Source: Mytilus edulis (Eukaryota). Taken from it: DNA of 64,000 bases. The position numbers and the translations under genes are program-made. Positions 14,498 through 61,442 of this stretch are shown here, in pieces. Every line of letters starts with the position of its first letter. The first letter of the stretch is position 1. The stretch is taken from contig NC_092354.1 in NCBI RefSeq assembly GCF_963676685.1, positions 28,768,001 through 28,832,000 on the forward strand, in the 5' to 3' direction. The notes beneath the pieces are model-generated. The model searched no databases and was not told the DNA's origin. It worked only from the letters and a program-made list of their open reading frames with translations.

Positions 14498-14947
14498 AAC
14501 AACAAGAGGCTGTCACAACGACAGCAAACCGGATTTATTAACATTTATTTGTATCCTGCCAATATCACAAGAACCATAACTCCTGAACGGTAAAAGTCAA
14601 AATCGTCATTATTGAACTTGACCTCCATTTTGTCATCAGTAACAACATATTAAAATTTGAGAAGCTTTGGTTGAACAGTTCATGAGTAAATGCACGGACA
14701 CGACTGGAAATGCCATTTTTCAATCTTTCAAGAAACGTAACTCCTGAACGGTAAATGTCAAAATCGTCATTATTGAACTTGACCTTCATTTTGTAGTCTG
14801 TAACAACATATTAAAATTTGAAAAGCTTTGGTTGAATGGTTCATGAGTAAATGCACGGACAACATTTGGTTGCCAAACCGCCCGCCCGCCCACCGTACAT
14901 CCCCAAATCAATAACCGACATTTTTGTCACAAAAATCCGGTTAAAAA
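14498..14947 (-). mobile_element. Helentron-associated non-autonomous element (HINE-like), ~2 internal units
   Basis: Subterminal IR aaccggattt/aaatccggtt, palindrome atttttgtcacaaaaat, (cgcc)n microsatellite and hairpin gctgtcacaacgacagc. Same family as 28301-29387. Confidence 0.75.
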
Positions 14948-28300: not shown

Positions 28301-29387
28301 AAACAAGAGGCTGTCACAACGACAGCAAACCGGATTTATTAATATTTATTTGTGTCCTGGCAATATCACAAGAACCATTACTGATGAATGGTGAAAGTGC
28401 AAATCGTCAATATCAAATTTGACCTCCATTTTGTCATCAGTATCAACATATTAAAATTTGAAAAGCTTAGATTGAATGGTTCATGAGTAAATGCAACAAC
28501 GTGAATGGAAACGCCATTTTACAATCTTTCAAGAACCATAACGCCTCAACGGTAAAAGTCAAAATCGTCATTATTGAACTTGACCTCCATTTTGTCATCA
28601 GTAACAACATATAAAAATTTCAAAAGCTTTGGTTGAATGGTTCATGAGAAAATGCACGGACATGACTGGAAACACCATTTTTCAATCTTTCAAGAACCAT
28701 AACTCCTGAACGGTAAAAGTCAAAATCGTCATTATTTAACTTGACCTCTATTTTGTCATCAGTTACAACATATTAAAATTTGGGAAGCTTTGGTAGAACA
28801 GTTCATGCGTAAATGCACAGACACAACTGGAAACTCCAGTTTTCAATCTTTCAAGAACCATAACTCCTGAACGGTAAAAGTCAAAATCGTCATTATTTAA
28901 CTTGACCTCCATTTTGTCACCAGTAACAACATATTAAAATTTGGGAAGTTTTGGTAGAACAGTTCATGCGTAAATGCACGGACACGACAGAAAACTCCAT
29001 TTTTCAATCTTTCAAGAACCATAACTCCTGAACGGTAAAAGTCAAAATCGTCATTATTGAACTTGACCTCCATTTTGTCACCAGTAACAACATATTAAAA
29101 TTTGGGAAGTTTTGGTAGAACAGTTCATGCGTAAATGCACGGACACGACAGAAAACTCCATTTTTCAATCTTTCAAGAACCATAACTCCTGAACGGTAAA
29201 AGTCAAAATCGCCATTATTGAACTTGACCTTCATTTAGTTGTCAGTAACAACATATTAAAATTTTAAAAGCTTTGGCTGAACGGTTCATGAGTTAATGCA
29301 CGGACAACATTTGATTGCCGCCCGCCCGACCGCCGTACATCCCCAAATCAATAACAGACATTTTTGTCACAAAAATCCGGTTAAAAA
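28301..29387 (-). mobile_element. HINE-like element with ~6 tandem ~161-bp satellite units
   Basis: Same ends as 14498-14947. Unit aagaaccataactcctgaacggtaaaagtcaaaatcg recurs every 161-162 bp. Confidence 0.85.
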
Positions 29388-40916: not shown

Positions 40917-41365
40917 GTGACTGTAAAGATCTCGGTGCTTGTGATACATTATTTTTCGTCAAGATGAGTGACTAAAGATCTTAGTGCTTGTGATGCATTT
41001 TTGTTTCCCAAGATGAGTGACTAAAGATATTGGTACTTGTGGTACATTATTGTTTCCCCAAGATGAGTGACTAAAGATATTGGTACTTGTGGTACATTAT
41101 TGTTTCCCCAAGATGAGTGACTGTAAAGATCTCGGTGCTTGTGATACATTATTTTTCGTCAAGATGAGTGACTATAGATCTTAGTGCTTGTGATGCATTT
41201 TTGTTTCCCAAGATGAGCGACTAAAGATCTTTGCACTTGTGGTTCATTATTGTTTCCCCAAGATGAATGACTGTAAAGATCTCGGTGCTTGTGGTGCATT
41301 ATTGTTTCCCGAGATGGTTGTTGTGCATTATTGTTTTTCAAGATGAGTGACTCAAGGTCTTGGTG
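40917..41365. repeat. Minisatellite, ~50-bp unit, ~9 copies, with a ~200-bp higher-order repeat
   Basis: caagatgagtgactaaagat...cttgtg unit. The gtgactgtaaagatctcggtgcttgtgatacattatttttcgtc variant occurs at ~40917 and ~41118. Confidence 0.85.
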
Positions 41366-43391
41366 TTCAAGTATCATTAGTTTGTTAGTTTTCCAAACTA
41401 GGAGTTTCAGGATGAAATTTATTAATAAAGCCATCGATTGGGTTGGAATCTGTAGGATAAATTTCTACTGCTAAAATAAAAATAAAAATATGACTCTTGT
41501 GGGGTTTAACCGATAGAAAAAATTCGCAAATATGGTATCGTTGTAAAACTTATTTTATTATTTCATATAGAAGTAATGGTGAACATTTGGAGATAATGCA
41601 CTTCAAACTTCATTTCTTTCTTCTTTTTTTTTTGTTTATCTTTGTAGATGTCTTACCAGTAAACTGATGTCTGAAATGAACATAAAAGGGAAAATGACTA
41701 AACATGCCTTTGGTGACTAAAACCTGTTCGAAATTATAAGTGAGTCATACCAATGTTTTACAAAATGAAGAATGTGTTACAATTTGTCACCAAATCCTAC
41801 TCTGGCATTACATTATTTTTTACCCAAATCTTTTCACAAAATCCTTGCATTGAAAATTAATTAACACAATAACCCAAAGGTTGCCATCAGTAAATTATTT
41901 TAAATAATGATATCATTAAACAGAAATAAGTTGTTCACTTAAAATAGAATAGTACTTAATGTGAACTGCAAAAGAAAATTTACCAAATTATGATGGTGTA
42001 CTTATACAAAGGTTTTCCTATTGCAGATACTGTAGTAAAAAGTAAAAACACAAAATTACTGAACTCCGAGGAAAATTCAAAAAGAAAAGTCCCAAATCAA
42101 TTGGCAAAATCAAAAGTTTAAACACATCAAACGAATGGATAACAACTGTCATATTCCTGACTTGGTACAGGCATCTTATGCAGAAAATGTTGGATTGAAC
42201 CTGGTTTTAATGCTAGCTAAACATCTCACTTCTATGACCAGGTCAGGTCGAACTCGGAAAATCAGGTATACTCGGTTTTGCGAGTTTTCAATCCCATCAT
42301 GCAGTTTCGTCAATAAAGGGAGATAATTTTGTCGGAATTTTTAGTTTCATTTGGCGGGAATTTTTAAAATTAAAAAAATATATATATTTAAATCCTATAT
42401 ATATATTGAATTGGTAAAACAATAAAGTATTTTATTAAAGTAAAGTGTTGTGTTGTATATTCATTTGAATAATTGAGCAATTATTTTTTCACAATGTTGG
42501 TCTATCTATTTCGCTGTAAATACACTGGTGTTCAAATGTTAATTAATATGATCAGATTGGTTAATTATCATGTTTGATGTTTGATAATTAATTGATATGT
42601 AAAATAAATAACTCAGTTAATAAAATTGTTTTGTAACAGTCTTTGAAGTTTTATTCATTTTTGTTTTCATTGATAGCTGATCCCGGCTTGTGAAAGTTAT
42701 TATCTCAAGCCCAAGCTTTAATTTAATGTGAACAGCATTGCATTCACTCAAGTTAATTGAGAAATTTAAGACAATTAAGAATTTGTTTATATATACTGCA
42801 ATTGAATTTCATCAATTTCCATAAGCTATCTGATCTCATAACTTGTTATAACGTAGAAACATCATAATATTCCTTTATTTCCGTGTACAACAGTACATAT
42901 GCCAAAGACAAAGTAAGTATTTATACTTTTATTTTTTTGGATGTAGTACATTTGTGTCGTTTTTTTTTCTCGGTTTTTTTTTTTATTAATTAACAAATAC
43001 AGTGTAAAGCAACAAGTTACTGTTTTTCTCATACGAATATTAAGATAAATATATGAAACACATAGAATCTTCATCTTTTCTGACACTAGATCTGGAACGT
43101 GTGATTAATTTTAATTGTGTATTGCTCATAGTTTCAACATGACATATCAATGAAAGTAAACCTGACATCATTTAGTCCTGAATATGCATGTAATATTTTT
43201 CACTGGACATTTGACAAACAACATCAATCGTTTCTATATATTTCCAATTCATGAAATAATTGCCACTGAACGTTTACAGAATAAAGGTTTTATGCAGAGG
43301 AACAGTATTTATTATGTTTTATAATTAATTGTATTGTAAATGTATTGCAATCTCCAATATATTCTATAACATTTATCTCTCTTAATTTCAG

Positions 43392-44184
43392 CAAAAAGAA
43401 GGTAGTTACAGCTAGTTACCAAGAAGACAAGCATCTTCGTACCAACACCAAGAATCGCCGCAAGCAGACCTTGTTCATGAAGGCTCAAGAATTCAGCACT
43501 CTAACAGGCTGCTTTGTATTCATGAAGATTGTAGACAACGATCTACAAAAGTCTTTCGTTCTCAGCACAGATGACTTGTACTCTGCTTATCAGCTTGGTG
43601 GTCTCAAACCACATACTATTGAAGAAAGACTCACCTATACAGATGACAACCAACACCAGTTTGGACTAAACCCAGTGATGCCATCACCCATAAAGATTAC
43701 CAAAAGACAGCCAGCCAAACTGCATTTTACCTGGGGGACTTAAACAACTTCCGGTGTTTGTGGACAATACCGTAGTGACGCACCAAGAAGAGGAAACATC
43801 AATGCAATTATCACCACCACCTGTCACTGTTAATGCAACAACACCATCTGATGAACAAGATCCCATAGCCACCATGGACAACGACTTGGTTTTGAAAGTA
43901 CTTGATCTTATTGACGATCACCCGAGTTTGTCTGAAACAACCATAGACCTACTAGAGACCATGAGTACCAGTCATTGTTGAAGTTGAAGAAGTGACAGAA
44001 AGCAGTTCCCTAACAACCTGCAGATACTGCAAGACTTCTTATGAAAAAGACAATGCCAACGGTCGCCAGAAGAAATGGGTGCAGTGTGAGGGTAATTGCA
44101 ACCAGTGGATGCAGTGCATGTCTGCCCAAGAAACACCCTAGACCTTCAAAGAAGACCAACACTTGGAGTTGCCCTTGTTCTTAA
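43392..44184 (+). pseudogene. Divergent SRF-type MADS-box protein with C-terminal PHD finger, frameshifted
   Basis: After a tttcag acceptor: YQEDKHLRTNTKNRRKQTLFMKAQEFSTLTGCFV (cf. SRF FIDNKLRRYTTFSKRKTGIMKKAYELSTLTGTQV). An acidic S/T/P linker follows, then CRYC...WVQCEGNCNQWM...ACL...WSCPC. About three frameshifts. Confidence 0.7.
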
Positions 44185-47992: not shown

Positions 47993-48566
47993 TAAATAGT
48001 AAACACACAAAAATTCTGAATTACGAGGACATTTCAAAAAGGAAAGTCCCAAATCAAATGGCAAAATCAATAGTTCAAACACATCAAACGAATGGATAAC
48101 AACTGTCATATTCCTGACTTGGTACAGGCATTTTCTTGTGTAGAAATGGTGGATTGAACCTGGTTTTATAGCTAGCTAAACCTCTCACTTGTATGACAGT
48201 CGCATCAAATTCCATTACATTGTCAACGATGTGTGAACAAAACAAACAGACACAATAAGTAAAAATGTTGAAAACAGGGGTACATCAGTCAACATTGTGT
48301 TATCATCTTAATCACTATAAAAAAAAATGTAACGAAGAAGCACAAAAAAGGCAGACATCAAATTTAACATCCTCATTTTGCTTATATTATACGATTATAT
48401 TTATCTATGTAAAATCTACCCACGAAGAATGGAAGAATTTCAGTACTGGTGTAAATGAGCGCATTGGAAATTCGCACAGGTAGATATAAAATAATTTTGT
48501 CGTTCAAAGTATGACGCATACATAAATGCAGAGTCACGTAAAGCGTAAAGTAGATATAACAAAAAT
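47993..48566 (+). repeat. Dispersed repeat abutting the truncated end of MULE copy 1
   Basis: Matches 42030-42240 (aaaagtcccaaatcaa...cacatcaaacgaatggataacaactgtcatattcctgacttggtacaggc). Confidence 0.7.
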
Positions 48567-51500
48567 ACAGAACTAATTTTAACTCACATGTATGTGGAAA
48601 TTACTGGTAGGGTAGGATGCCTAACTTATAGAATAGAAAAATAGAAAATATTTTTTTTATTCACCAAATAAGGGCCCCTAGAAGGGCATATAGCATACAA
48701 ACAATAACATATGCAATACACAGACAATAGATATTTAATATGAGTAATAAAATAATACTACAGGAAACACTAAACAAAATAATAGCAATATACTAGTACT
48801 ATTATAATTCAATTAATACTAGTGTTGACATTGACTTATGTGCTGCAGGTTTATTAGTGTATTTTACCTATAAAAAGAAAAACAAGAAGTATAAGTAGGT
48901 AGTACTGAGAAATATTTACACATATAAATACATTAAATTACACACAGTTTGTTTTTTTAATAAATTTACTGCACGCGTTGCCGTTTTAGCGTAGTTGTCC
49001 TATCAGCCAGTTTCCTTTTCCTCTGACCTTTCTTCTTTCCTTTCGACCTAGCTTCATTGACCACTCGTCTGCCATCTGTTGACTTAACCAATTTGGTCTT
49101 CATACGGTATCGGCGGAACCTGGCAAAATATTTGTACCTTTCCATTAAAGTTTTGTTTGCCCAAACATGCCTGTCAATCTTAAAATGTTCGTGTGTGCTC
49201 GCAAGCGTATAAGGTCCTCTCCCGATCACTGCTCTCCGTAAATCTTTATAGTTTGCCTCTACCATGTCTGTCATCTTTATCACAAAGTCAACTAATGACT
49301 GAGGCTTCCAATCAACAGCTATCTTCAGAACATGATTGTACGATTCACTATTATTGTTAGTCCACTCTCTTTCAATTCTTCCCGCATTTTGTGGCTCATA
49401 TATTTTCCCTTTAAGGACTGGCTTCAAAACCGTTGAAAAGTAGCCTTTCAATGATGGAAATTTCTCCTTGCAGAATTCTTCGACTTCTTCACACTTTTCT
49501 TCAAAAACGGCACTATCGTCTGCATTAGATATGCCATTTCTTCCAAAAATGCGTTGCTCGATATCTAATCTCTCCTTTCTGTGCATCCCAACTCCATTTT
49601 TCATCTTTTCTGAAAGGTTTAGTTTCAAATGCCGTGTACATAATACATGAGTTGCTTCTGGAAAACTTTTGACAATGGCTTTAACTAAAGATCCTTCTTG
49701 ATCGGAACCAATGACCAATTCCGAGGTGTCCACATCCGCGAGTTTGGTCTTAAGATGCGAGAAAAATATACTATACGTATCAAAATGCGAACAGTCGTGT
49801 AAAAACATGGGTCCGACAAATAAAGGCGGTTCTCCTGTTTCAATCTTTGTGACAGAAAGTTGTTTGAAAACAGATGGTGTCACATGAATGTCACAAATGT
49901 TAAATGTTTTGTCGAAACCCAAAAGAGTTTGTCCACTGCAGCACAAGTTCACAACGTCCTTCATCATTTCTTCCGTATACAGGATAACGCACGGTGTTTT
50001 ACCTGGAGAATGAGCCACATGCTTAATTAAACTGTGTCCTTTCTGCATCATATTTTCTATAGTTTGTATGTTATCTGCCATATTTCCACGGTTTCCTGTT
50101 ACGCCAGTTATATTCCGAATTTCTTTCTTCTTATCGCGGTATTTTTTGTCACGAATCTGTCTTGGTGCCGAAGGCCCGGTTGCTTCATCACTACAGTTGA
50201 TTAACAATTTATTATATGCATTTTTTGGACGCATGGTTTTCACAAGTTCTCCCATTTCTTCAAATAACAGTGCTGGAGTTCGAACGAATTCACTTCCTTT
50301 CTTTGAATTGCCATGAGCAGAAAAACCGGGGTGTTTGCCTTTATATTCCACGACAGCCGCATTGAAGTTGATATCAAATGAAGGAGGTGCTTTTCCGACC
50401 CATGTTACTCTTTTCTTGTATGACTGTTGCTTAAGAGTGGAGTAGCTACGACTGATTTCCACGATTTTTTCATCGGCGGGCTGAGGATCCACTGGAATGA
50501 ATTCTTTCTTCTTGTTTATTTGCTTTTCAGTACAAAATATACCCTGTCTACATACAACAGCTTTTAGCTTACCATCATCTTGAACAACATATGTCTTAGG
50601 TGTTGACCCAGATGAACTAATCCAGACCCCACAGTCATCGGAAAATTCACTACGTAAGTTATTAACTCGTCTTGCAATGTTTCTGGAGTTGTCAATTGTA
50701 AAACATACGTTGTCTTTCTTTCCTTCTGGGATACCATGTCTAACATCTTTTGATTTCAGTTTATTTAAAAGTTCCTCTAAATTTAAAAACTCTCCGTATC
50801 TTAATTGTTCTTCTGGTTGAAACATACAAGAATTTGATACTTCATCGAGAGAATCGTCTTTTTCGGCGTCATCTGAACTGTCATTGTCTTCATTCTCCAG
50901 GTTTTCTTTTGCCTCATCTGACCCATTGCTCCTTTGGTTATGAAAGAAACTAAAATTGTCTGACAAAACTGATTGATCAAGGGAACTGTTGTGCGTATTG
51001 CTACTGCTTTCATCTGGATCACTTTCACCAAATATATCCGTAACAGTTCTTTCTGCAGATTCACCAGTTTCGTCTGCAGTCTTTGGTTTTATGCTGTAAA
51101 AAAAATACATGTCTTAATAGAATAAGAAAAGAATGAACCAACGCGCCATATGGTATCATAAAACACAGATGACACATCACGAACAAGTATACTACTAGTA
51201 TTTAAAATTGAACAATATATATTCACTTGATGAACAACTAAATAGCTAGAAATTGTATTTTATTATGGTGTAAAAGCGGCATCACCCTTAAACGGTAAAG
51301 GTAACGCCACATAAATCAAAGGCTGTTTTATGTGGTAATGAGTATTGAATACATAAATTTCATAACACGGACGTACAAACCGACAAGGGTAAAAAATAAT
51401 GGCCCTTTCGCTACGGGGAGCCATACAAACGAATCTTATAATTCTTTATTTTTTATAATGCAACCTTGAAATTACTAGTTATCACAAATTAAATCGTGTT

Positions 51501-54500
51501 ACTATGTGCATGCAGTGTGTGACGTTGTCGTGAGAAGCAAGATCATGTGATGTAATGAATGTTGAAATTTACTGAGTGATACCCTTTGATATTGCAATGT
51601 CATTTTTTACATTGAATAAGTATTTATATCATACCTTTCATTGTTGTATGTAGCATCAGTACTGTCGACAGTATCACTGTGTTTGTTGTGCTGTTGGCTG
51701 CTGTTGTCTCTGTTGTGGGGGTCTATGCTTGTCTCGTAGTCTTGGTTAGTGCCTTCTTTGTTGCATTTGTTGTTTTTTGCATTTCTTTGGTTGCTTGTAT
51801 GGTCCTGATCACTACTGTCGTCCAGATCCACGAACTGTGAAGTCGGTGTATGTAATCTCAAAAGAGGTACACAGTGGTTTGGATCAAACACTGCGAATGG
51901 TTGTGGTCTTACTTTCATAGTCCACATTATTGTTACTGCAGCCTCTTCACTTTCATTAACAGTTCTCCCAACTATTTTTCTGTGATATGGCTCTGTATGG
52001 TAGTTTGAAGATACCAAAGGTGGATAATATGATTGAAGTGGCTTGTTTATAACAGCACTCAACCCATACATATGTTGCATGTCGGAATATGCTCCTATGA
52101 CTATGGCATTCCTGACAAGCTGTTCATATGGACTGGTTACTACACGGTTATCCCTAATCCTGTCGGTGTACCCTTTAGATGAGGTATCGTATTGCTGTTT
52201 ATTGCTTATGATTTCCAATGCAGTCAGGAGTCTGAGGTGATGATGGTAAATTTGCGTTCCAAAAAGTCCAGTTGATACAGAGCGATAAAGACAGTTGCCG
52301 TCGCCTATAGTTTCTATTGGTGTTCTGGTTTCCAATACCGCTGGCGCAAAACCGCGTAAAATATTTGCAGAGACTTCATCGACATTTTCCAGACAAATTT
52401 GATTGGATTGTTCCGGTAGTTTGATATCGTACGTCTTCAATAAAAGTGATTCAGATGTAGCAGTATTGGTTATTTGTGAGGTGTTTCCATCTTTCAATGT
52501 AGATTCTAACCTGAAATATGCCCAAAAATTAACATCAGCACAAATTAGTATCAATTTTCTCGTCCTTTTTATATATACTTGAACTTGAAAAGTGAGATAA
52601 TTAACGGTCTCGAAATGCGGTAATATGATTGATTGTTGGTTGCTTAACGTCCAGTGGCAAATATTTTTTGCAAATTCAGGACATTTTATACTTGTTTTAT
52701 AATTTATACATATATAATTCATGTAGAACGAAATGCGGTAATATCATTCATTTTCTTCTTTTTTTTTTTTTTTATCAAAAAGACATACCTTCATCAGTGA
52801 CATATTATATGTTTCTGTTAAATGTACATGTATTACCTTATAATATAGCAAGATAAAATTTTCATTGTCGATATACAAGTGAATAAGAAATATTAATTTA
52901 TGACTGTCAAACAATTGTTCTACATGAATTAAATTTTATAAATTATAAAACATGCACTGTTTTGTTCAATCTCGGTCGCTAATTTAATTAGTTGGAACAT
53001 TTCAACAATTCCTTATAAAGTTTTTCGAATGAGTATATATATTATATGCATATCACGTAAAATAGAAAATATCATATAAAACATGAAGGAAATTTAACAG
53101 TAATTATTGAATAAATACTAATAAGTTTGAGTACTTTGTTCTATTTGTTTGCCTTTGTTTGTGTTGTGTGTGTGTGTGAGTGTGTTACATTTTAAATTAA
53201 TACACATTAATTATGACTTTGACACGTTAAACTTGTCTATGGTTTGAAATCGTAAAAAAAAGGTCCCGTTATCTTCATGAACAAGCTTATCTATAATAGA
53301 TACATGTAGCGCAGGCAAATATTTATCACCATCGGACATCGTTTCGCTAATCTACATATATAAGTGGTTTATTAGATAAAATAAATAGAAATCAACAGGC
53401 CATTAATTTTTTCACACCCTTTATCTATACGCTTATTATAAGGTAAACAATTATTAATTATACCGAGAGCGGGTGCGCTTTTCATTTATCTATATTTCCT
53501 ATGAAAGACGAAACGAACAGACTATAAAAAAAATAATAATTGGGACATCTATACTAATTTAGTATCATAATCCGATATAATAATGATGTCATTTCTTTTT
53601 ATTAAAAAATCTTCTTTTATTCCCATGTAGCCCTTTGTTTTTACGAATTAAGAAATTGAAACTAAACAAGAATCTCGTAAAGTTTGGCAAGTTTAACATG
53701 TAGCAGGACTTGAAATTTTCGTCCAATATTTTTATAATTCTATTTTCTAAATATTTACCTTAACAAGGACTGCTGGCAGTCAAAACTTTCCTGATCAAAA
53801 CAGCAAAATTTGCAGTAAAATTTCAGTCCTCTCGTTGCCCATTGTTTTGTTAATTCTGATGACATTCCTTTGCCGACACAGCCACTGTGCACCCATTTTC
53901 CACACCCAAAGCAGAGGACGGATTCTGTGCATTCACAATCCTTACTACAGATACAGCAAGGGTACTGTTTTCGATATCGAGATTTACAACTACGTGCTCT
54001 CACCATTTTTTGTAATTTTGAAAAAAAGTGAGGAAACAAGCCTTTTTATTTTTTTTAAAGTGACGATTATCGTGTTTAAATCACGTGCAACAAATATTTT
54101 TGACATCTAACATCCGAGAGGAAATGGTGATGCTGACATGTATATTTTTTATATTACCATACCCAATGCCACCGGGCAATATGTTGACATCTTAATAATA
54201 AACAAACGAAATATTTTTTATTAAATGTAAGGATAAACATTTATAGTAAGATAATATTTGCTTTTCATTTATTTTTACTGCGTATTAGTATAAACATTTA
54301 AAATGCTGTCCTAATTTATGAACCTGATGTTCAGTGCATTGTTGTCGTTGATGTGATTAAAATCCTTGATGAAAAAATAAATAATTAAGCATACATGTAT
54401 TAAACAAAATTTAACTAGAAAAACATGTTAAATTGTTTCTTCTTTGTAAATTCACATATTCTTATAAATGCACAATCTAAATTTTTAATTATGCATTTAA

Positions 54501-54688
54501 TTTTATTATTACGAAGAATTGTTAACAATATAAAAAAAATATAATACATTGTTTTAACTTTATTCAATAAATATATATGTATCCTCTTTTCGGTTCTTTT
54601 CGGTCCTTTTCGGTTCTTTTTGGTCCTTTTCGGTTCTTTTCGGTTCTTTTCTGTAATTCGTCGCTCTTTTCTGTAAATCGTTGGACCG
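48567..54688 (-). mobile_element. Mutator-like (MULE) DNA transposon, copy 1, lacking its left TIR
   Basis: Near-identical to 54866-60986. Right TIR 54580-54688 is present; the first 172 bp of the element are absent. Confidence 0.9.
48966..54006 (-). CDS. PHD-OTU-MULE transposase fusion, 1083 aa (exons 54006-53759, 52510-51635, 51093-48966)
   Basis: Both GT-AG introns are phase 2 and in frame (248+876+2128=3252 nt). C4HC3 PHD; OTU GDGNCLYRS...PNHCVPL; MULE FDKTFN, GSDQE, CTRH and TNNNSESYN. Confidence 0.88.
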
Positions 54689-54800
54689 AAATAGGGTTCG
54701 ACGACTTACAGAAAAGAGCGACGATTTACAGAAAAGAACCGAAAAGGACCGAAAAGGACCAAAAAGAACCGAAAAGGACCGAAAAGAACCGAAAAGGATA
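54580..54800. repeat. Abutting terminal inverted repeats (~107 bp each) built of 10-bp subrepeats
   Basis: (cggt(t/c)ctttt)n...ctgtaaatcgttggaccg AAATA gggttcgacgacttacag...(aaaag(a/g)accg)n. Confidence 0.9.
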
Positions 54801-57800
54801 TCGATTTTTTTGTTATAGAAGGAAATAAGGAAATTGCATTTAATCATTGAAAACCTTATACTGTGACAGAACTAATTTTAACTCACATGTATGTGGAAAT
54901 TACTGGTAGGGTAGGATGCCTAACTTATAGAATAGAAAAATAGAAAATATTTTTTTTATTCACCAAATAAGGGCCCCTAGAAGGGCATATAGCATACAAA
55001 CAATAACATATGCAATACACAGACAATAGATATTTAATATGAGTAATAAAATAATACTACAGGAAACACTAAACAAAATAATAGCAATATACTAGTACTA
55101 TTATAATTCAATTAATACTAGTGTTGACATTGACTTATGTGCTGCAGGTTTATTAGTGTATTTTACCTATAAAAAGAAAAACAAGAAGTATAAGTAGGTA
55201 GTACTGAGAAATATTTACACATATAAATACATTAAATTACACACAGTTTGTTTTTTTAATAAATTTACTGCACGCGTTGCCGTTTTAGCGTAGTTGTCCT
55301 ATCAGCCAGTTTCCTTTTCCTCTGACCTTTCTTCTTTCCTTTCGACCTAGCTTCATTGACCACTCGTCTGCCATCTGTTGACTTAACCAATTTGGTCTTC
55401 ATACGGTATCGGCGGAACCTGGCAAAATATTTGTACCTTTCCATTAAAGTTTTGTTTGCCCAAACATGCCTGTCAATCTTAAAATGTTCGTGTGTGCTCG
55501 CAAGCGTATAAGGTCCTCTCCCGATCACTGCTCTCCGTAAATCTTTATAGTTTGCCTCTACCATGTCTGTCATCTTTATCACAAAGTCAACTAATGACTG
55601 AGGCTTCCAATCAACAGCTATCTTCAGAACATGATTGTACGATTCACTATTATTGTTAGTCCACTCTCTTTCAATTCTTCCCGCATTTTGTGGCTCATAT
55701 ATTTTCCCTTTAAGGACTGGCTTCAAAACCGTTGAAAAGTAGCCTTTCAATGATGGAAATTTCTCCTTGCAGAATTCTTCGACTTCTTCACACTTTTCTT
55801 CAAAAACGGCACTATCGTCTGCATTAGATATGCCATTTCTTCCAAAAATGCGTTGCTCGATATCTAATCTCTCCTTTCTGTGCATCCCAACTCCATTTTT
55901 CATCTTTTCTGAAAGGTTTAGTTTCAAATGCCGTGTACATAATACATGAGTTGCTTCTGGAAAACTTTTGACAATGGCTTTAACTAAAGATCCTTCTTGA
56001 TCGGAACCAATGACCAATTCCGAGGTGTCCACATCCGCGAGTTTGGTCTTAAGATGCGAGAAAAATATACTATACGTATCAAAATGCGAACAGTCGTGTA
56101 AAAACATGGGTCCGACAAATAAAGGCGGTTCTCCTGTTTCAATCTTTGTGACAGAAAGTTGTTTGAAAACAGATGGTGTCACATGAATGTCACAAATGTT
56201 AAATGTTTTGTCGAAACCCAAAAGAGTTTGTCCACTGCAGCACAAGTTCACAACGTCCTTCATCATTTCTTCCGTATACAGGATAACGCACGGTGTTTTA
56301 CCTGGAGAATGAGCCACATGCTTAATTAAACTGTGTCCTTTCTGCATCATATTTTCTATAGTTTGTATGTTATCTGCCATATTTCCACGGTTTCCTGTTA
56401 CGCCAGTTATATTCCGAATTTCTTTCTTCTTATCGCGGTATTTTTTGTCACGAATCTGTCTTGGTGCCGAAGGCCCGGTTGCTTCATCACTACAGTTGAT
56501 TAACAATTTATTATATGCATTTTTTGGACGCATGGTTTTCACAAGTTCTCCCATTTCTTCAAATAACAGTGCTGGAGTTCGAACGAATTCACTTCCTTTC
56601 TTTGAATTGCCATGAGCAGAAAAACCGGGGTGTTTGCCTTTATATTCCACGACAGCCGCATTGAAGTTGATATCAAATGAAGGAGGTGCTTTTCCGACCC
56701 ATGTTACTCTTTTCTTGTATGACTGTTGCTTAAGAGTGGAGTAGCTACGACTGATTTCCACGATTTTTTCATCGGCGGGCTGAGGATCCACTGGAATGAA
56801 TTCTTTCTTCTTGTTTATTTGCTTTTCAGTACAAAATATACCCTGTCTACATACAACAGCTTTTAGCTTACCATCATCTTGAACAACATATGTCTTAGGT
56901 GTTGACCCAGATGAACTAATCCAGACCCCACAGTCATCGGAAAATTCACTACGTAAGTTATTAACTCGTCTTGCAATGTTTCTGGAGTTGTCAATTGTAA
57001 AACATACGTTGTCTTTCTTTCCTTCTGGGATACCATGTCTAACATCTTTTGATTTCAGTTTATTTAAAAGTTCCTCTAAATTTAAAAACTCTCCGTATCT
57101 TAATTGTTCTTCTGGTTGAAACATACAAGAATTTGATACTTCATCGAGAGAATCGTCTTTTTCGGCGTCATCTGAACTGTCATTGTCTTCATTCTCCAGG
57201 TTTTCTTTTGCCTCATCTGACCCATTGCTCCTTTGGTTATGAAAGAAACTAAAATTGTCTGACAAAACTGATTGATCAAGGGAACTGTTGTGCGTATTGC
57301 TACTGCTTTCATCTGGATCACTTTCACCAAATATATCCGTAACAGTTCTTTCTGCAGATTCACCAGTTTCGTCTGCAGTCTTTGGTTTTATGCTGTAAAA
57401 AAAATACATGTCTTAATAGAATAAGAAAAGAATGAACCAACGCGCCATATGGTATCATAAAACACAGATGACACATCACGAACAAGTATACTACTAGTAT
57501 TTAAAATTGAACAATATATATTCACTTGATGAACAACTAAATAGCTAGAAATTGTATTTTATTATGGTGTAAAAGCGGCATCACCCTTAAACGGTAAAGG
57601 TAACGCCACATAAATCAAAGGCTGTTTTATGTGGTAATGAGTATTGAATACATAAATTTCATAACACGGACGTACAAACCGACAAGGGTAAAAAATTAAT
57701 GGCCCTTTCGCTACGGGGAGCCATACAAACGAATCTTATAATTCTTTATTTTTTATAATGCAACCTTGAAATTACTAGTTATCACAAATTAAATCGTGTT

Positions 57801-60800
57801 ACTATGTGCATGCAGTGTGTGACGTTGTCGTGAGAAGCAAGATCATGTGATGTAATGAATGTTGAAATTTACTGAGTGATACCCTTTGATATTGCAATGT
57901 CATTTTTTACATTGAATAAGTATTTATATCATACCTTTCATTGTTGTATGTAGCATCAGTACTGTCGACAGTATCACTGTGTTTGTTGTGCTGTTGGCTG
58001 CTGTTGTCTCTGTTGTGGGGGTCTATGCTTGTCTCGTAGTCTTGGTTAGTGCCTTCTTTGTTGCATTTGTTGTTTTTTGCATTTCTTTGGTTGCTTGTAT
58101 GGTCCTGATCACTACTGTCGTCCAGATCCACGAACTGTGAAGTCGGTGTATGTAATCTCAAAAGAGGTACACAGTGGTTTGGATCAAACACTGCGAATGG
58201 TTGTGGTCTTACTTTCATAGTCCACATTATTGTTACTGCAGCCTCTTCACTTTCATTAACAGTTCTCCCAACTATTTTTCTGTGATATGGCTCTGTATGG
58301 TAGTTTGAAGATACCAAAGGTGGATAATATGATTGAAGTGGCTTGTTTATAACAGCACTCAACCCATACATATGTTGCATGTCGGAATATGCTCCTATGA
58401 CTATGGCATTCCTGACAAGCTGTTCATATGGACTGGTTACTACACGGTTATCCCTAATCCTGTCGGTGTACCCTTTAGATGAGGTATCGTATTGCTGTTT
58501 ATTGCTTATGATTTCCAATGCAGTCAGGAGTCTGAGGTGATGATGGTAAATTTGCGTTCCAAAAAGTCCAGTTGATACAGAGCGATAAAGACAGTTGCCG
58601 TCGCCTATAGTTTCTATTGGTGTTCTGGTTTCCAATACCGCTGGCGCAAAACCGCGTAAAATATTTGCAGAGACTTCATCGACATTTTCCAGACAAATTT
58701 GATTGGATTGTTCCGGTAGTTTGATATCGTACGTCTTCAATAAAAGTGATTCAGATGTAGCAGTATTGGTTATTTGTGAGGTGTTTCCATCTTTCAATGT
58801 AGATTCTAACCTGAAATATGCCCAAAAATTAACATCAGCACAAATTAGTATCAATTTTCTCGTCCTTTTTATATATACTTGAACTTGAAAAGTGAGATAA
58901 TTAACGGTCTCGAAATGCGGTAATATGATTGATTGTTGGTTGCTTAACGTCCAGTGGCAAATATTTTTTGCAAATTCAGGACATTTTATACTTGTTTTAT
59001 AATTTATACATATATAATTCATGTAGAACGAAATGCGGTAATATCATTCATTTTCTTCTTTTTTTTTTTTTTTATCAAAAAGACATACCTTCATCAGTGA
59101 CATATTATATGTTTCTGTTAAATGTACATGTATTACCTTATAATATAGCAAGATAAAATTTTCATTGTCGATATACAAGTGAATAAGAAATATTAATTTA
59201 TGACTGTCAAACAATTGTTCTACATGAATTAAATTTTATAAATTATAAAACATGCACTGTTTTGTTCAATCTCGGTCGCTAATTTAATTAGTTGGAACAT
59301 TTCAACAATTCCTTATAAAGTTTTTCGAATGAGTATATATATTATATGCATATCACGTAAAATAGAAAATATCATATAAAACATGAAGGAAATTTAACAG
59401 TAATTATTGAATAAATACTAATAAGTTTGAGTACTTTGTTCTATTTGTTTGCCTTTGTTTGTGTTGTGTGTGTGTGAGTGTGTTACATTTTAAATTAATA
59501 CACATTAATTATGACTTTGACACGTTAAACTTGTCTATGGTTTGAAATCGTAAAAAAAAGGTCCCGTTATCTTCATGAACAAGCTTATCTATAATAGATA
59601 CATGTAGCGCAGGCAAATATTTATCACCATCGGACATCGTTTCGCTAATCTACATATATAAGTGGTTTATTAGATAAAATAAATAGAAATCAACAGGCCA
59701 TTAATTTTTTCACACCCTTTATCTATACGCTTATTATAAGGTAAACAATTATTAATTATACCGAGAGCGGGTGCGCTTTTCATTTATCTATATTTCCTAT
59801 GAAAGACGAAACGAACAGACTATAAAAAAAATAATAATTGGGACATCTATACTAATTTAGTATCATAATCCGATATAATAATGATGTCATTTCTTTTTAT
59901 TAAAAAATCTTCTTTTATTCCCATGTAGCCCTTTGTTTTTACGAATTAAGAAATTGAAACTAAACAAGAATCTCGTAAAGTTTGGCAAGTTTAACATGTA
60001 GCAGGACTTGAAATTTTCGTCCAATATTTTTATAATTCTATTTTCTAAATATTTACCTTAACAAGGACTGCTGGCAGTCAAAACTTTCCTGATCAAAACA
60101 GCAAAATTTGCAGTAAAATTTCAGTCCTCTCGTTGCCCATTGTTTTGTTAATTCTGATGACATTCCTTTGCCGACACAGCCACTGTGCACCCATTTTCCA
60201 CACCCAAAGCAGAGGACGGATTCTGTGCATTCACAATCCTTACTACAGATACAGCAAGGGTACTGTTTTCGATATCGAGATTTACAACTACGTGCTCTCA
60301 CCATTTTTTGTAATTTTGAAAAAAAGTGAGGAAACAAGCCTTTTTATTTTTTTTAAAGTGACGATTATCGTGTTTAAATCACGTGCAACAAATATTTTTG
60401 ACATCTAACATCCGAGAGGAAATGGTGATGCTGACATGTATATTTTTTATATTACCATACCCAATGCCACCGGGCAATATGTTGACATCTTAATAATAAA
60501 CAAACGAAATATTTTTTATTAAATGTAAGGATAAACATTTATAGTAAGATAATATTTGCTTTTCATTTATTTTTACTGCGTATTAGTATAAACATTTAAA
60601 ATGCTGTCCTAATTTATGAACCTGATGTTCAGTGCATTGTTGTCGTTGATGTGATTAAAATCCTTGATGAAAAAATAAATAATTAAGCATACATGTATTA
60701 AACAAAATTTAACTAGAAAAACATGTTAAATTGTTTCTTCTTTGTAAATTCACATATTCTTATAAATGCACAATCTAAATTTTTAATTATGCATTTAATT

Positions 60801-60986
60801 TTATTATTACGAAGAATTGTTAACAATATAAAAAAAATATAATACATTGTTTTAACTTTATTCAATAAATATATATGTATCCTCTTTTCGGTTCTTTTCG
60901 GTCCTTTTCGGTTCTTTTTGGTCCTTTTCGGTTCTTTTCGGTTCTTTTCTGTAATTCGTCGCTCTTTTCTGTAAATCGTTGGACCG
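54694..60986 (-). mobile_element. Mutator-like (MULE) DNA transposon, copy 2, full length (6293 bp), putatively autonomous
   Basis: Both TIRs present (54694-54800, 60878-60986), flanked by AAATA on each side, with an intact spliced transposase gene. Confidence 0.92.
55265..60304 (-). CDS. PHD-OTU-MULE transposase fusion, 1083 aa (exons 60304-60057, 58810-57935, 57392-55265)
   Basis: Same ORF translations and splice sites as copy 1. Confidence 0.88.
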
Positions 60987-61442
60987 AAATAAAGTCACTA
61001 AAAATGATTTTGTCGTTAAATGTATCTAACCTATCTTATCTTGAAGGAACCGTATCTTCCCACACAAATTAAATTCCTTTAAGTTACAGTTTAGTTCACT
61101 ATATTTCAGAAATTTGTGAGGTTTTTCCCAACCAGGCATTTATCGATATTGAGATAACGGAATCGTTAAAATTTAATGTCTCCTATTCGCTCTAGTCACA
61201 TACCATCTAACGTTCATACGCAAAGTGACTAAATTATTTTTATTTATCTGAAATACAATACGTTCACGGTCGCAGGAAAAGGGAGAATATGTATAAACTT
61301 TTAATATTTTAAATACTTTGATAGCGATTGTTGCTGCCGATGAACTGTTTAGTCTTCTTTCTATATGGTCAACTATTTGAAGTGAAGCGACGGCAGAAAA
61401 TTACAATTCAACTTCAATTATGTATTTATTTATAAGCATTAA

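What the first reader, a model, noticed from the sequence alone, without database searches (positions are those of the whole stretch)
54580..54800. Head-to-tail transposon dimer with a 5-bp AAATA spacer forming a ~220-bp near-palindrome
Seen: the right TIR of copy 1 and the left TIR of copy 2 are separated only by AAATA, and AAATA also follows copy 2 (60987-60991). Established: MULE TSDs are usually about 8-11 bp. Inference: this is either an atypical 5-bp TSD (or GAAATAG/GAAATAA if the termini are one base shorter), targeted insertion next to its own end, or a dimer formed by recombination or circle re-integration. The junction could extrude as a cruciform.
Basis: partly seen in the sequence, partly recalled or inferred. 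Interest (0 to 1): 0.7.

Follow-up and report, generated by a model that had tools for sequence, protein, structure and literature searches.

The report
Head-to-tail mussel Mutator transposon dimer
A young 6.3-kb Mutator-type transposon in a mussel genome sits twice in a row, its two ends 5 bases apart; those 5 bases are likely what is left of the family's normal 8-9-base target duplication after the element was likely cut and re-joined to its own sister copy, which is a known kind of by-product rather than a new system.

Summary
The 211-bp near-palindrome is real: right TIR of copy 1, AAATA, left TIR of copy 2. The element is a 6.3-kb Mytilus MULE with one PHD-OTU-DDE gene. Two corrections. 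Copy 1 has no left TIR (first 172-173 bp missing), and a third AAATA precedes it. The family's TSD is 8-9 bp (48 of 62 paired copies exact; none a true 5), so an atypical 5-bp TSD is refuted: AAATA is the first five bases of the inferred target AAATAAAGT. The copies differ by no substitution in 6.1 kb. The genome holds three more head-to-tail junctions in this and a sister family; none keeps a full TSD (0/-4, 0/-8, -8 by microhomology), and two pairs share private deletions, so such dimers arise by local self-duplication. Best reading (0.5): transposase cut the left tip exactly and it was joined 5 nt outside the sister copy's right end. Rivals: full-TSD dimer later trimmed (0.3); IS256-like circle pathway (0.12); assembly error (0.06). 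The geometry matches an IS256 circle junction, but only at 1 of 4 junctions. The junction is not verified in reads. Known kind; modest interest.

The parts
48563..48567 (+). AAATA, remnant of the left target-site copy; the last A is a 1-bp overlap with copy 1
   Evidence: a paralogous empty site aligns host left flank to host right flank across this point
48567..54688 (+). copy 1 of the MULE, lacking its first 172-173 bp (left TIR lost)
   Evidence: 0 substitutions and 2 short-run indels against copy 2
48966..54006 (-). transposase gene of copy 1 (exons 54006-53759, 52510-51635, 51093-48966, placed by offset from copy 2)
54586..54688 (+). right TIR of copy 1 (103 bp, 10-bp subterminal repeats), tip intact
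54689..54693 (+). AAATA spacer, equal to the first 5 bases of the right host flank (inferred TSD remnant)
54694..54796 (+). left TIR of copy 2 (103 bp), tip intact
54694..60986 (+). copy 2, complete 6,293-bp element with open reading frames
55265..60304 (-). three-exon gene: PHD finger (60304-60057), OTU-like protease (58810-57935), MULE DDE transposase (57392-55265); about 1,083 aa
   Evidence: Pfam PF00628, PF02338, PF10551; exons from tblastn of P0032 and GT-AG sites; conserved D, D, CxxH, E
60884..60986 (+). right TIR of copy 2
60987..60995 (+). AAATAAAGT, inferred original 9-bp target (8 bp also possible)
   Evidence: sequence; length inferred from the family's TSDs

Best explanation
This is a head-to-tail dimer of a young Mytilus Mutator-like transposon whose family makes 8-9-bp target duplications; it likely arose in place when the transposase cut the left end of one replicated copy exactly at its tip and that end was joined 5 bases outside the right end of the sister copy, so AAATA is likely leftover flank and not a short TSD. 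Shown: element anatomy, family TSD length, identity of the two copies, spacer equal to the flank, loss of copy 1's left TIR, three comparable junctions elsewhere. Inferred: the original target AAATAAAGT; the sister-chromatid partner; the join itself, either a single-end strand transfer or break repair that kept or copied five flank bases. Loss of the left TIR of copy 1 is likely a further end-joining event of a kind also seen in single copies; it may instead be the end point of re-replication in the same event. The element's regular mode is likely cut-and-paste with gap repair, and the dimer a by-product.
For: TSD 8-9 bp in 48 of 62 paired copies, none a true 5. The spacer is the start of this locus's own flank, and the paralogous empty site shows that almost no host DNA was lost. 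Copies differ by 0 substitutions in 6,127 bp, while other copies held here reach at most 96% over 500 bp or more. Of four head-to-tail junctions found (window; C2:49700376; C8:84230416; C12:33069586) none keeps a full TSD, not even this youngest one, and three break exactly at one tip without microhomology. The C8 pair and the C12 pair each share a deletion junction found in no other sister-family locus held, so those are local self-duplications. Single copies also lose the left end from the tip with the TSD kept or nearly kept (L152, L164). Sister-family copies nearly all carry their own internal deletions, as abortive gap repair after excision gives. Muta1 cuts both strands at the end and makes single-end joins in vitro (PMC5499845).
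Against: The left flank also stops at AAAT(A), like the junction; here that is a coincidence (my rough estimate is 1 in 5). Near-identical copies exist in other Mytilus assemblies (P0032 99.7%), so identity alone does not prove a local source for this pair. The C2 left fragment matches another copy (L065, 100%) better than its neighbour (97.8%), so that junction may have another origin. Junction deletions are common in ordinary double-insertion dimers (hobo 24 of 36; 10.1101/158386). One locus cannot separate strand transfer from repair.
Confidence: 0.5

Rival explanations
1. A dimer with the full TSD between the copies formed first (second insertion into the same site, or exchange across the TSD or its remnant), and the junction then lost AAGT through a re-cut at the left tip or instability of the palindrome.
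For: Established for P and hobo: most intact P dimers hold the 8-nt TSD, and 24 of 36 hobo dimers have junction deletions (10.1101/158386). Both TSD copies that precede a left end stop at the same AAATA, as processing of the same cut flank, or duplication through a shared 5-mer, would give. The C12 dimer is complete and lies within one TSD pair.
Against: 0 of 4 junctions keep a full TSD, although this pair has no substitution. Targets are diverse (45 distinct of 48, 74% AT), so exact re-use of a site needs local hopping. No microhomology explains the loss of AAGT.
Confidence: 0.3
2. The clade transposes like IS256 by copy-out/paste-in: the left end attacks 5 nt outside the right end, a circle with an AAATA junction forms and recombines back into the donor copy.
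For: Both tips intact and a spacer taken from one flank, shorter than the TSD, as for ISCth4 (spacers 6-8 bp, TSD 8; PMC7780238) and prokaryotic Mutator-like elements (6-10 bp; PMC3942029). The nearest solved fold is ISCth4 (Foldseek E 1.4e-6; VIA Z 11.7, rmsd 5.5, 232 aligned). Circles are reported for maize Mu and yeast alpha3 (as cited in PMC3942029). The family alignment has no conserved W about 18 residues before the catalytic E, where Muta1 has W401.
Against: Only 1 of 4 junctions has this form; the others have no spacer and lose 4-8 tip bases. 1 of 73 exact right ends is in such a junction. Many private internal deletions and tip deletions point to double-strand breaks at donor sites. 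The eukaryotic MULE tested biochemically, Muta1, cuts and pastes (PMC5499845). No eukaryotic MULE appears among the fold-search rows, so the ISCth4 match is expected for any MULE.
Confidence: 0.12
3. The dimer is an assembly error, such as two alleles joined in tandem.
For: The copies differ only by two indels in short runs. The junction could not be checked in reads of the source animal.
Against: The join is base-exact at an element tip, no host flank is duplicated, both outer junctions fit one empty site, and comparable dimers with 3 substitutions in 1.7 kb and 7 in 3.3 kb, nested insertions and a TSD pair exist elsewhere in the genome.
Confidence: 0.06
4. The element makes a 5-bp TSD.
For: AAATA occurs three times, at both outer edges and in the middle.
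Against: 0 of 62 paired copies have a 5-bp TSD; the one exact 5-nt match is a 9-mer with one mismatch. The sister family has 9-10 bp exact in 14 of 17 pairs.
Confidence: 0.02

Closest known systems
Head-to-tail DNA-transposon dimers of Drosophila (P, hobo, Bari1; McGurk and Barbash, 10.1101/158386; passages and section 10 read)
   Same: Head-to-tail orientation, abutted TIRs, junction sequence from the target, small deletions at the junction, a partial element at one edge (Bari1).
   Different: Intact P dimers carry the full 8-nt TSD and are put down to target preference; here 5 of 8-9 bases remain, none of 4 junctions is full, targets are diverse, and two pairs are shown to be self-copies.
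Muta1 of Aedes aegypti (PMC5499845; parts 2-4 of 5 read)
   Same: MULE DDE transposase, 8- or 9-bp TSD, long TIR with short subterminal repeats behind a terminal motif, non-autonomous derivatives.
   Different: PHD and OTU domains instead of FLYWCH, about 1,083 aa against 504; W401 has no evident counterpart at the same distance from E (not aligned directly); chemistry untested here.
IS256 family circle and tandem-dimer junctions (ISCth4, PMC7780238; p-MULT, PMC3942029; passages read)
   Same: Related fold; two intact ends separated by a few bases of one flank, fewer than the TSD.
   Different: Bacterial, short TIRs, circle is the regular intermediate; here one chromosomal junction of this form among four, and no circle was observed.
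Alternative transposition and re-replication by Ac/Ds (PMC4270019; passages read)
   Same: Transposase acting on replicated ends gives tandem copies, with an aborted copy end-joined by short homology, as at C8 (4-bp overlap).
   Different: Described for reversed ends of two hAT elements with large flanking duplications; here one element and no host duplication.
Rehavkus and MuDR-6_HM (Table 1 of PMC6446971; passages and supplement rows read)
   Same: PHD finger and 9-bp TSD (Rehavkus); an 'Ovarian Tumour Gene' is listed for MuDR-6_HM of Hydra.
   Different: No minisatellite in this family (the sister family has an 88-bp one); PHD lies N-terminal; no sequence comparison was made.

Membership tests
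MULE (Mutator) superfamily | DDE RNase H-like catalytic domain with helical insertion | tested here: met
   PF10551 E 5.6e-6 and PF00872 (just under the curated cut-offs; homolog P0005 passes); D300, D370, E489 conserved in A1; model pLDDT 85 matches ISCth4 best
MULE (Mutator) superfamily | C/DxxH motif after the second D | tested here: met
   C391 and H394 invariant in 24 sequences
MULE (Mutator) superfamily | Terminal inverted repeats | tested here: met
   103-bp TIRs, 97 of 103; 69 exact left and 73 exact right 23-mers in the genome
MULE (Mutator) superfamily | TSD of about 8-11 bp | tested here: met
   48 of 62 paired copies exact 8 or 9 bp, 7 more decayed
Muta1-type cut-and-paste MULE | Double-strand break with hairpin on the flank | not testable with these tools
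   Indirect only: private internal deletions and tip deletions; W401 counterpart unclear
Double-insertion tandem dimer | Full TSD between the two copies | tested here: not met
   5 of the expected 8-9 bases here; none at C2, C8, C12; later trimming is not excluded
Double-insertion tandem dimer | Same TSD at both outer edges | tested here: inconclusive
   Right flank AAATAAAGT; left flank stops at AAAT(A) where copy 1 is truncated
IS256-like copy-out/paste-in | Intact ends separated by a few bases of one flank | tested here: met
   At this locus only
IS256-like copy-out/paste-in | Such junctions recur across copies | tested here: not met
   1 of 73 right ends; the other 3 junctions are spacer-less and trimmed
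IS256-like copy-out/paste-in | Free circular intermediate; donor left unbroken | not testable with these tools
   Needs circle-enriched sequencing or biochemistry
Rehavkus | PHD finger and 9-bp TSD | tested here: met
   features as listed in PMC6446971
Rehavkus | Minisatellite before the 3' TIR | tested here: not met
   Only the TIR repeats and short chance arrays; the sister family has an 88-bp array
Rehavkus | Phylogenetic placement with Rehavkus transposases | not tested
   No reference sequences were available to the tools

The most novel reading that the evidence does not exclude
A marine-invertebrate PHD-OTU-DDE clade of MULEs keeps the IS256-type asymmetric reaction, in which one end attacks a few bases outside the other, and this dimer is a chromosomal fossil of that circle junction in an animal, from an element with open reading frames that could be tested directly.
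Probability: 0.12. Interest if true: 0.75.

Novelty: new member of a known kind. Interest (0 to 1): 0.3.

Why it matters
As it stands: a very young, open-frame MULE of mussels and four end-to-end junctions, two of them shown to be self-duplications, none with a full TSD. That is a useful addition to the double-insertion account of tandem transposons and a seed for satellites or palindrome instability, but not a new system. If the copy-out reading held, it would show that the Mutator superfamily uses both cut-and-paste and the bacterial circle pathway in eukaryotes, bearing on the old question of how Mu-type elements gain copies and what their circles are.

Tried and rejected
5-bp TSD and shifted termini: rejected by flank tables. 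Two-ended insertion into its own tip: predicts an extra ACCG after copy 2, absent. Displaced left TIR of copy 1: not in the window, 20 kb upstream or 10 kb downstream. My interim idea that all four dimers have a truncated outer copy: wrong, the C12 copy is only interrupted by a 7.4-kb nested element and is complete; 3 of 4 remain, and one-end loss is also frequent in single copies, so re-replication is possible but not required. My interim idea that the C2 fragment is a self-copy: doubtful. Public runs: 7 of the 24 listed runs were laid. In (one raw run, about 3% read, 365 reads laid, and three contig sets; four contig sets, 302 records laid) no listed read or contig bridges the right and left ends, and no joint is reported there. 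Lists are cut, contigs drop rare forms, and none is known to be the source animal, so this neither confirms nor refutes the junction. Sequence searches of solved structures found no transposase. Fold searches do not separate mechanisms. Earlier scan findings: none. Barsoum 2010 and Prudhomme 2002 are not held and are known here only through citing papers.

Full report
Observation. The sequence at 54586-54796 is a 211-bp near-palindrome: two 103-bp arms, 97 of 103 complementary, around AAATA at 54689-54693. It folds as one hairpin, -117 kcal/mol as DNA, z -25.7. A self-comparison of the window shows 48567-54693 repeated at 54866-60991, with no substitution and two indels in short runs. So the repeated unit includes AAATA, and copy 1 begins 172-173 bases into the element: it has no left TIR, and none lies in the window or in the 20 kb upstream and 10 kb downstream.

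The element. Copy 2 (54694-60986, 6,293 bp) carries on the minus strand a three-exon gene for a PHD finger, an OTU-like protease and a MULE DDE domain. Homologs with source names are from Mytilus, Mercenaria and Styela; a 1,084-aa Mytilus edulis protein from another assembly is 98-100% identical exon by exon, so the family is very young. An alignment of 24 sequences keeps D, D, CxxH and E. The model (pLDDT 85) is nearest to the IS256-family transposase ISCth4 (E 1.4e-6, Hermes 5e-4; Z 11.7 against 9.2), which is expected for a MULE and says nothing on mechanism.

Termini and TSD. The genome holds 69 exact left-end and 73 exact right-end 23-mers. Of 62 copies with both ends read, 33 have an exact 9-bp TSD, 15 an exact 8-bp TSD, 7 an 8/9-mer with one or two mismatches, 1 has 7 bp and 6 have none (from; the set includes one duplicate contig and copies nested in another repeat, 45 distinct TSDs of 48). 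None has a true 5-bp TSD. The termini are GGGTTC and GGACCG.

The site. The right flank belongs to a repeat family almost confined to this chromosome (23 of 25 matches). Its closest paralog gives the empty site and joins the window's left host flank to its right host flank with a 2-base difference. The locus therefore reads: host-AAATA, copy 1 from base 174, AAATA, copy 2, AAATAAAGT-host. With a 9-bp target AAATAAAGT (inferred), both TSD copies in front of a left end lack AAGT; at the outer edge one base is ambiguous.

Other junctions. A tight pattern finds only this intact end-to-end junction in the family. Reading the outer flank of all 73 right ends shows one more: at C2:49700376 an intact right end is fused to a left end lacking 4 bases. 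A protein search showed tandem hits in a sister family, 45% identical. It has 273-bp TIRs and 9-10-bp exact TSDs in 14 of 17 pairs, and 51 TIR matches with two abutted pairs. At C8 one end is intact, the partner lacks 8 bases, and the outer end of copy 2 is cut off and joined to the same host site through a 4-base overlap, shown by paralogous empty sites. At C12 the junction lost 8 tip bases through a 4-base microhomology, and the dimer is complete inside one TSD pair, with a 7.4-kb element nested in copy 2. Each pair shares a deletion junction found in no other sister-family locus held: these two are local self-duplications. The C2 fragment is closer to a copy on C1 than to its neighbour, so it may differ in origin. 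Net: four junctions (+5; 0/-4; 0/-8; -8), none with a full TSD, three breaking exactly at one tip.

The missing TIR. Single copies show the same lesion: L152 lacks about the first 127 bases with its 9-bp TSD intact, L164 about the first 164 with the TSD nearly intact, and several sister-family copies lack one end within the stretch fetched. Truncation of copy 1 needs no special mechanism.

Mechanism. Shown steps are above; what follows is inference. Breaks exactly at a tip without microhomology point to transposase cleavage. Self-copy pairs point to the sister chromatid. The simplest path is that a left end freed on one sister was joined near the right end of the other: inside or at the tip in the trimmed junctions, five bases outside it here, by single-end strand transfer or by repair that kept five flank bases. 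Muta1 cuts both strands, leaves a hairpin on the flank and makes single-end joins in vitro (PMC5499845, parts 2-4 read). The many private internal deletions fit gap repair after excision. I give this 0.5. A full-TSD dimer trimmed later (0.3) has precedent, since 24 of 36 hobo dimers have junction deletions (10.1101/158386, passages and section 10), and it explains the triple AAATA more easily; against it, no junction here keeps a full TSD. Re-replication of the Ac/Ds kind (PMC4270019, passages) could unite duplication and truncation in one event but is not required.

The bold reading. Two intact ends with five bases of one flank is the geometry of IS256-family circle junctions (ISCth4 spacers 6-8 bp, TSD 8, PMC7780238, passages; 6-10 bp in prokaryotic Mutator-like elements, with circles of maize Mu and yeast alpha3 cited, PMC3942029, passages). 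The family also shows no conserved W at the distance from E that Muta1's W401 has, though no direct alignment was made. But three of four junctions do not have this form, and the donor-break signatures argue for cut-and-paste. Probability 0.12. Two searches for such junctions in eukaryotic MULEs and one for Mytilus MULE tandems (PMC10294476, passages) returned no description of this element or its dimers; the library lacks most subscription journals and Repbase, and the two primary papers on alpha3 circles and IS256 dimers were not held. Supplements of the bioRxiv preprint were not seen and may hold junction-level detail for hobo. PMC10462705 and PMC12312487 (passages) show circles and alternative transposition for plant VANDAL21; PMC3887531 (passages) shows P elements landing in tandem beside a resident P; PMC13359780 (passages) added nothing.

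Not verified. No read of the source animal was available; the public runs laid neither confirm nor refute the junction (details under Tried and rejected). An assembly error is unlikely (0.06) given base-exact joins and the older dimers elsewhere. Cruciform extrusion is untested.

Verdict. Real feature, MULE membership met, 5-bp TSD refuted, dimer of a known kind with a small mechanistic question attached. Interest 0.3.

Noticed in passing
G000:C8:84224089-84236532 (L170-L171): Sister-family head-to-tail dimer: no spacer, partner lacks 8 bp, a 1.27-kb repeat inserted 150 bp into the second TIR, outer end cut off and joined to the same host site by a 4-bp overlap.
   Followed up: yes
G000:C12:33066586-33079520 (L173, L174, L206): Complete sister-family dimer within one TSD pair; microhomology junction; a deletion of about 690 bp starts 110 bp from the junction and shortens the palindrome; a 7.4-kb unclassified element, 99% identical to a copy on C7 and with at least 8 related ends, is nested in copy 2.
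   Followed up: partly
G000:C2:49700270-49702161 (L112): Right-end fragment fused to a 1.8-kb non-autonomous copy lacking 4 tip bases; the fragment matches a copy on C1 better than its neighbour.
   Followed up: partly
window 55265-60304: PHD + OTU + MULE DDE in one three-exon gene, OTU Cys motif present; the same three Pfam domains in a Styela protein and OTU + MULE in unnamed homologs. A public Mytilus protein named CHID1 is this transposase fused to host exons.
   Followed up: partly
window 43285-43740 (+): Open frame with an SRF-type (MADS) domain, PF00319 E 4.5e-7, about 5 kb upstream of the dimer; the dimer's right flank belongs to a repeat with 23 of 25 matches on C11, possibly an expanded gene family.
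   Followed up: no
L152 (C12:51963751) and L164 (C2:29994924): Single copies that lost about 127 and 164 bp from the left tip while keeping the TSD, with short imperfect homology between TSD and element interior.
   Followed up: partly
G000:C11:22711294-22712321 (L115): A 91%-identical left-end fragment of the same family lies 18 kb from the paralogous empty site.
   Followed up: no
window 28369-29306, 14501-14947 and 40917-41316: Tandem arrays of about 161 bp (two places) and about 50 bp.
   Followed up: no
G000:C7:921637-928270, C6:56786426-56794332, C12:46453543-46460522, C6:20694581-20701254: Further related MULE copies with long open frames, TIRs of about 100-270 bp and G/C tips; one family has an 88-bp minisatellite beside a TIR.
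   Followed up: partly
host of the C8 dimer (L190-L196): A multi-copy coding repeat (92-98% identical copies on six chromosomes) that resembles a tyrosine-recombinase transposon; this label is recalled and was not tested. A separate 93-bp palindrome lies at C8:84223415-84223507.
   Followed up: no
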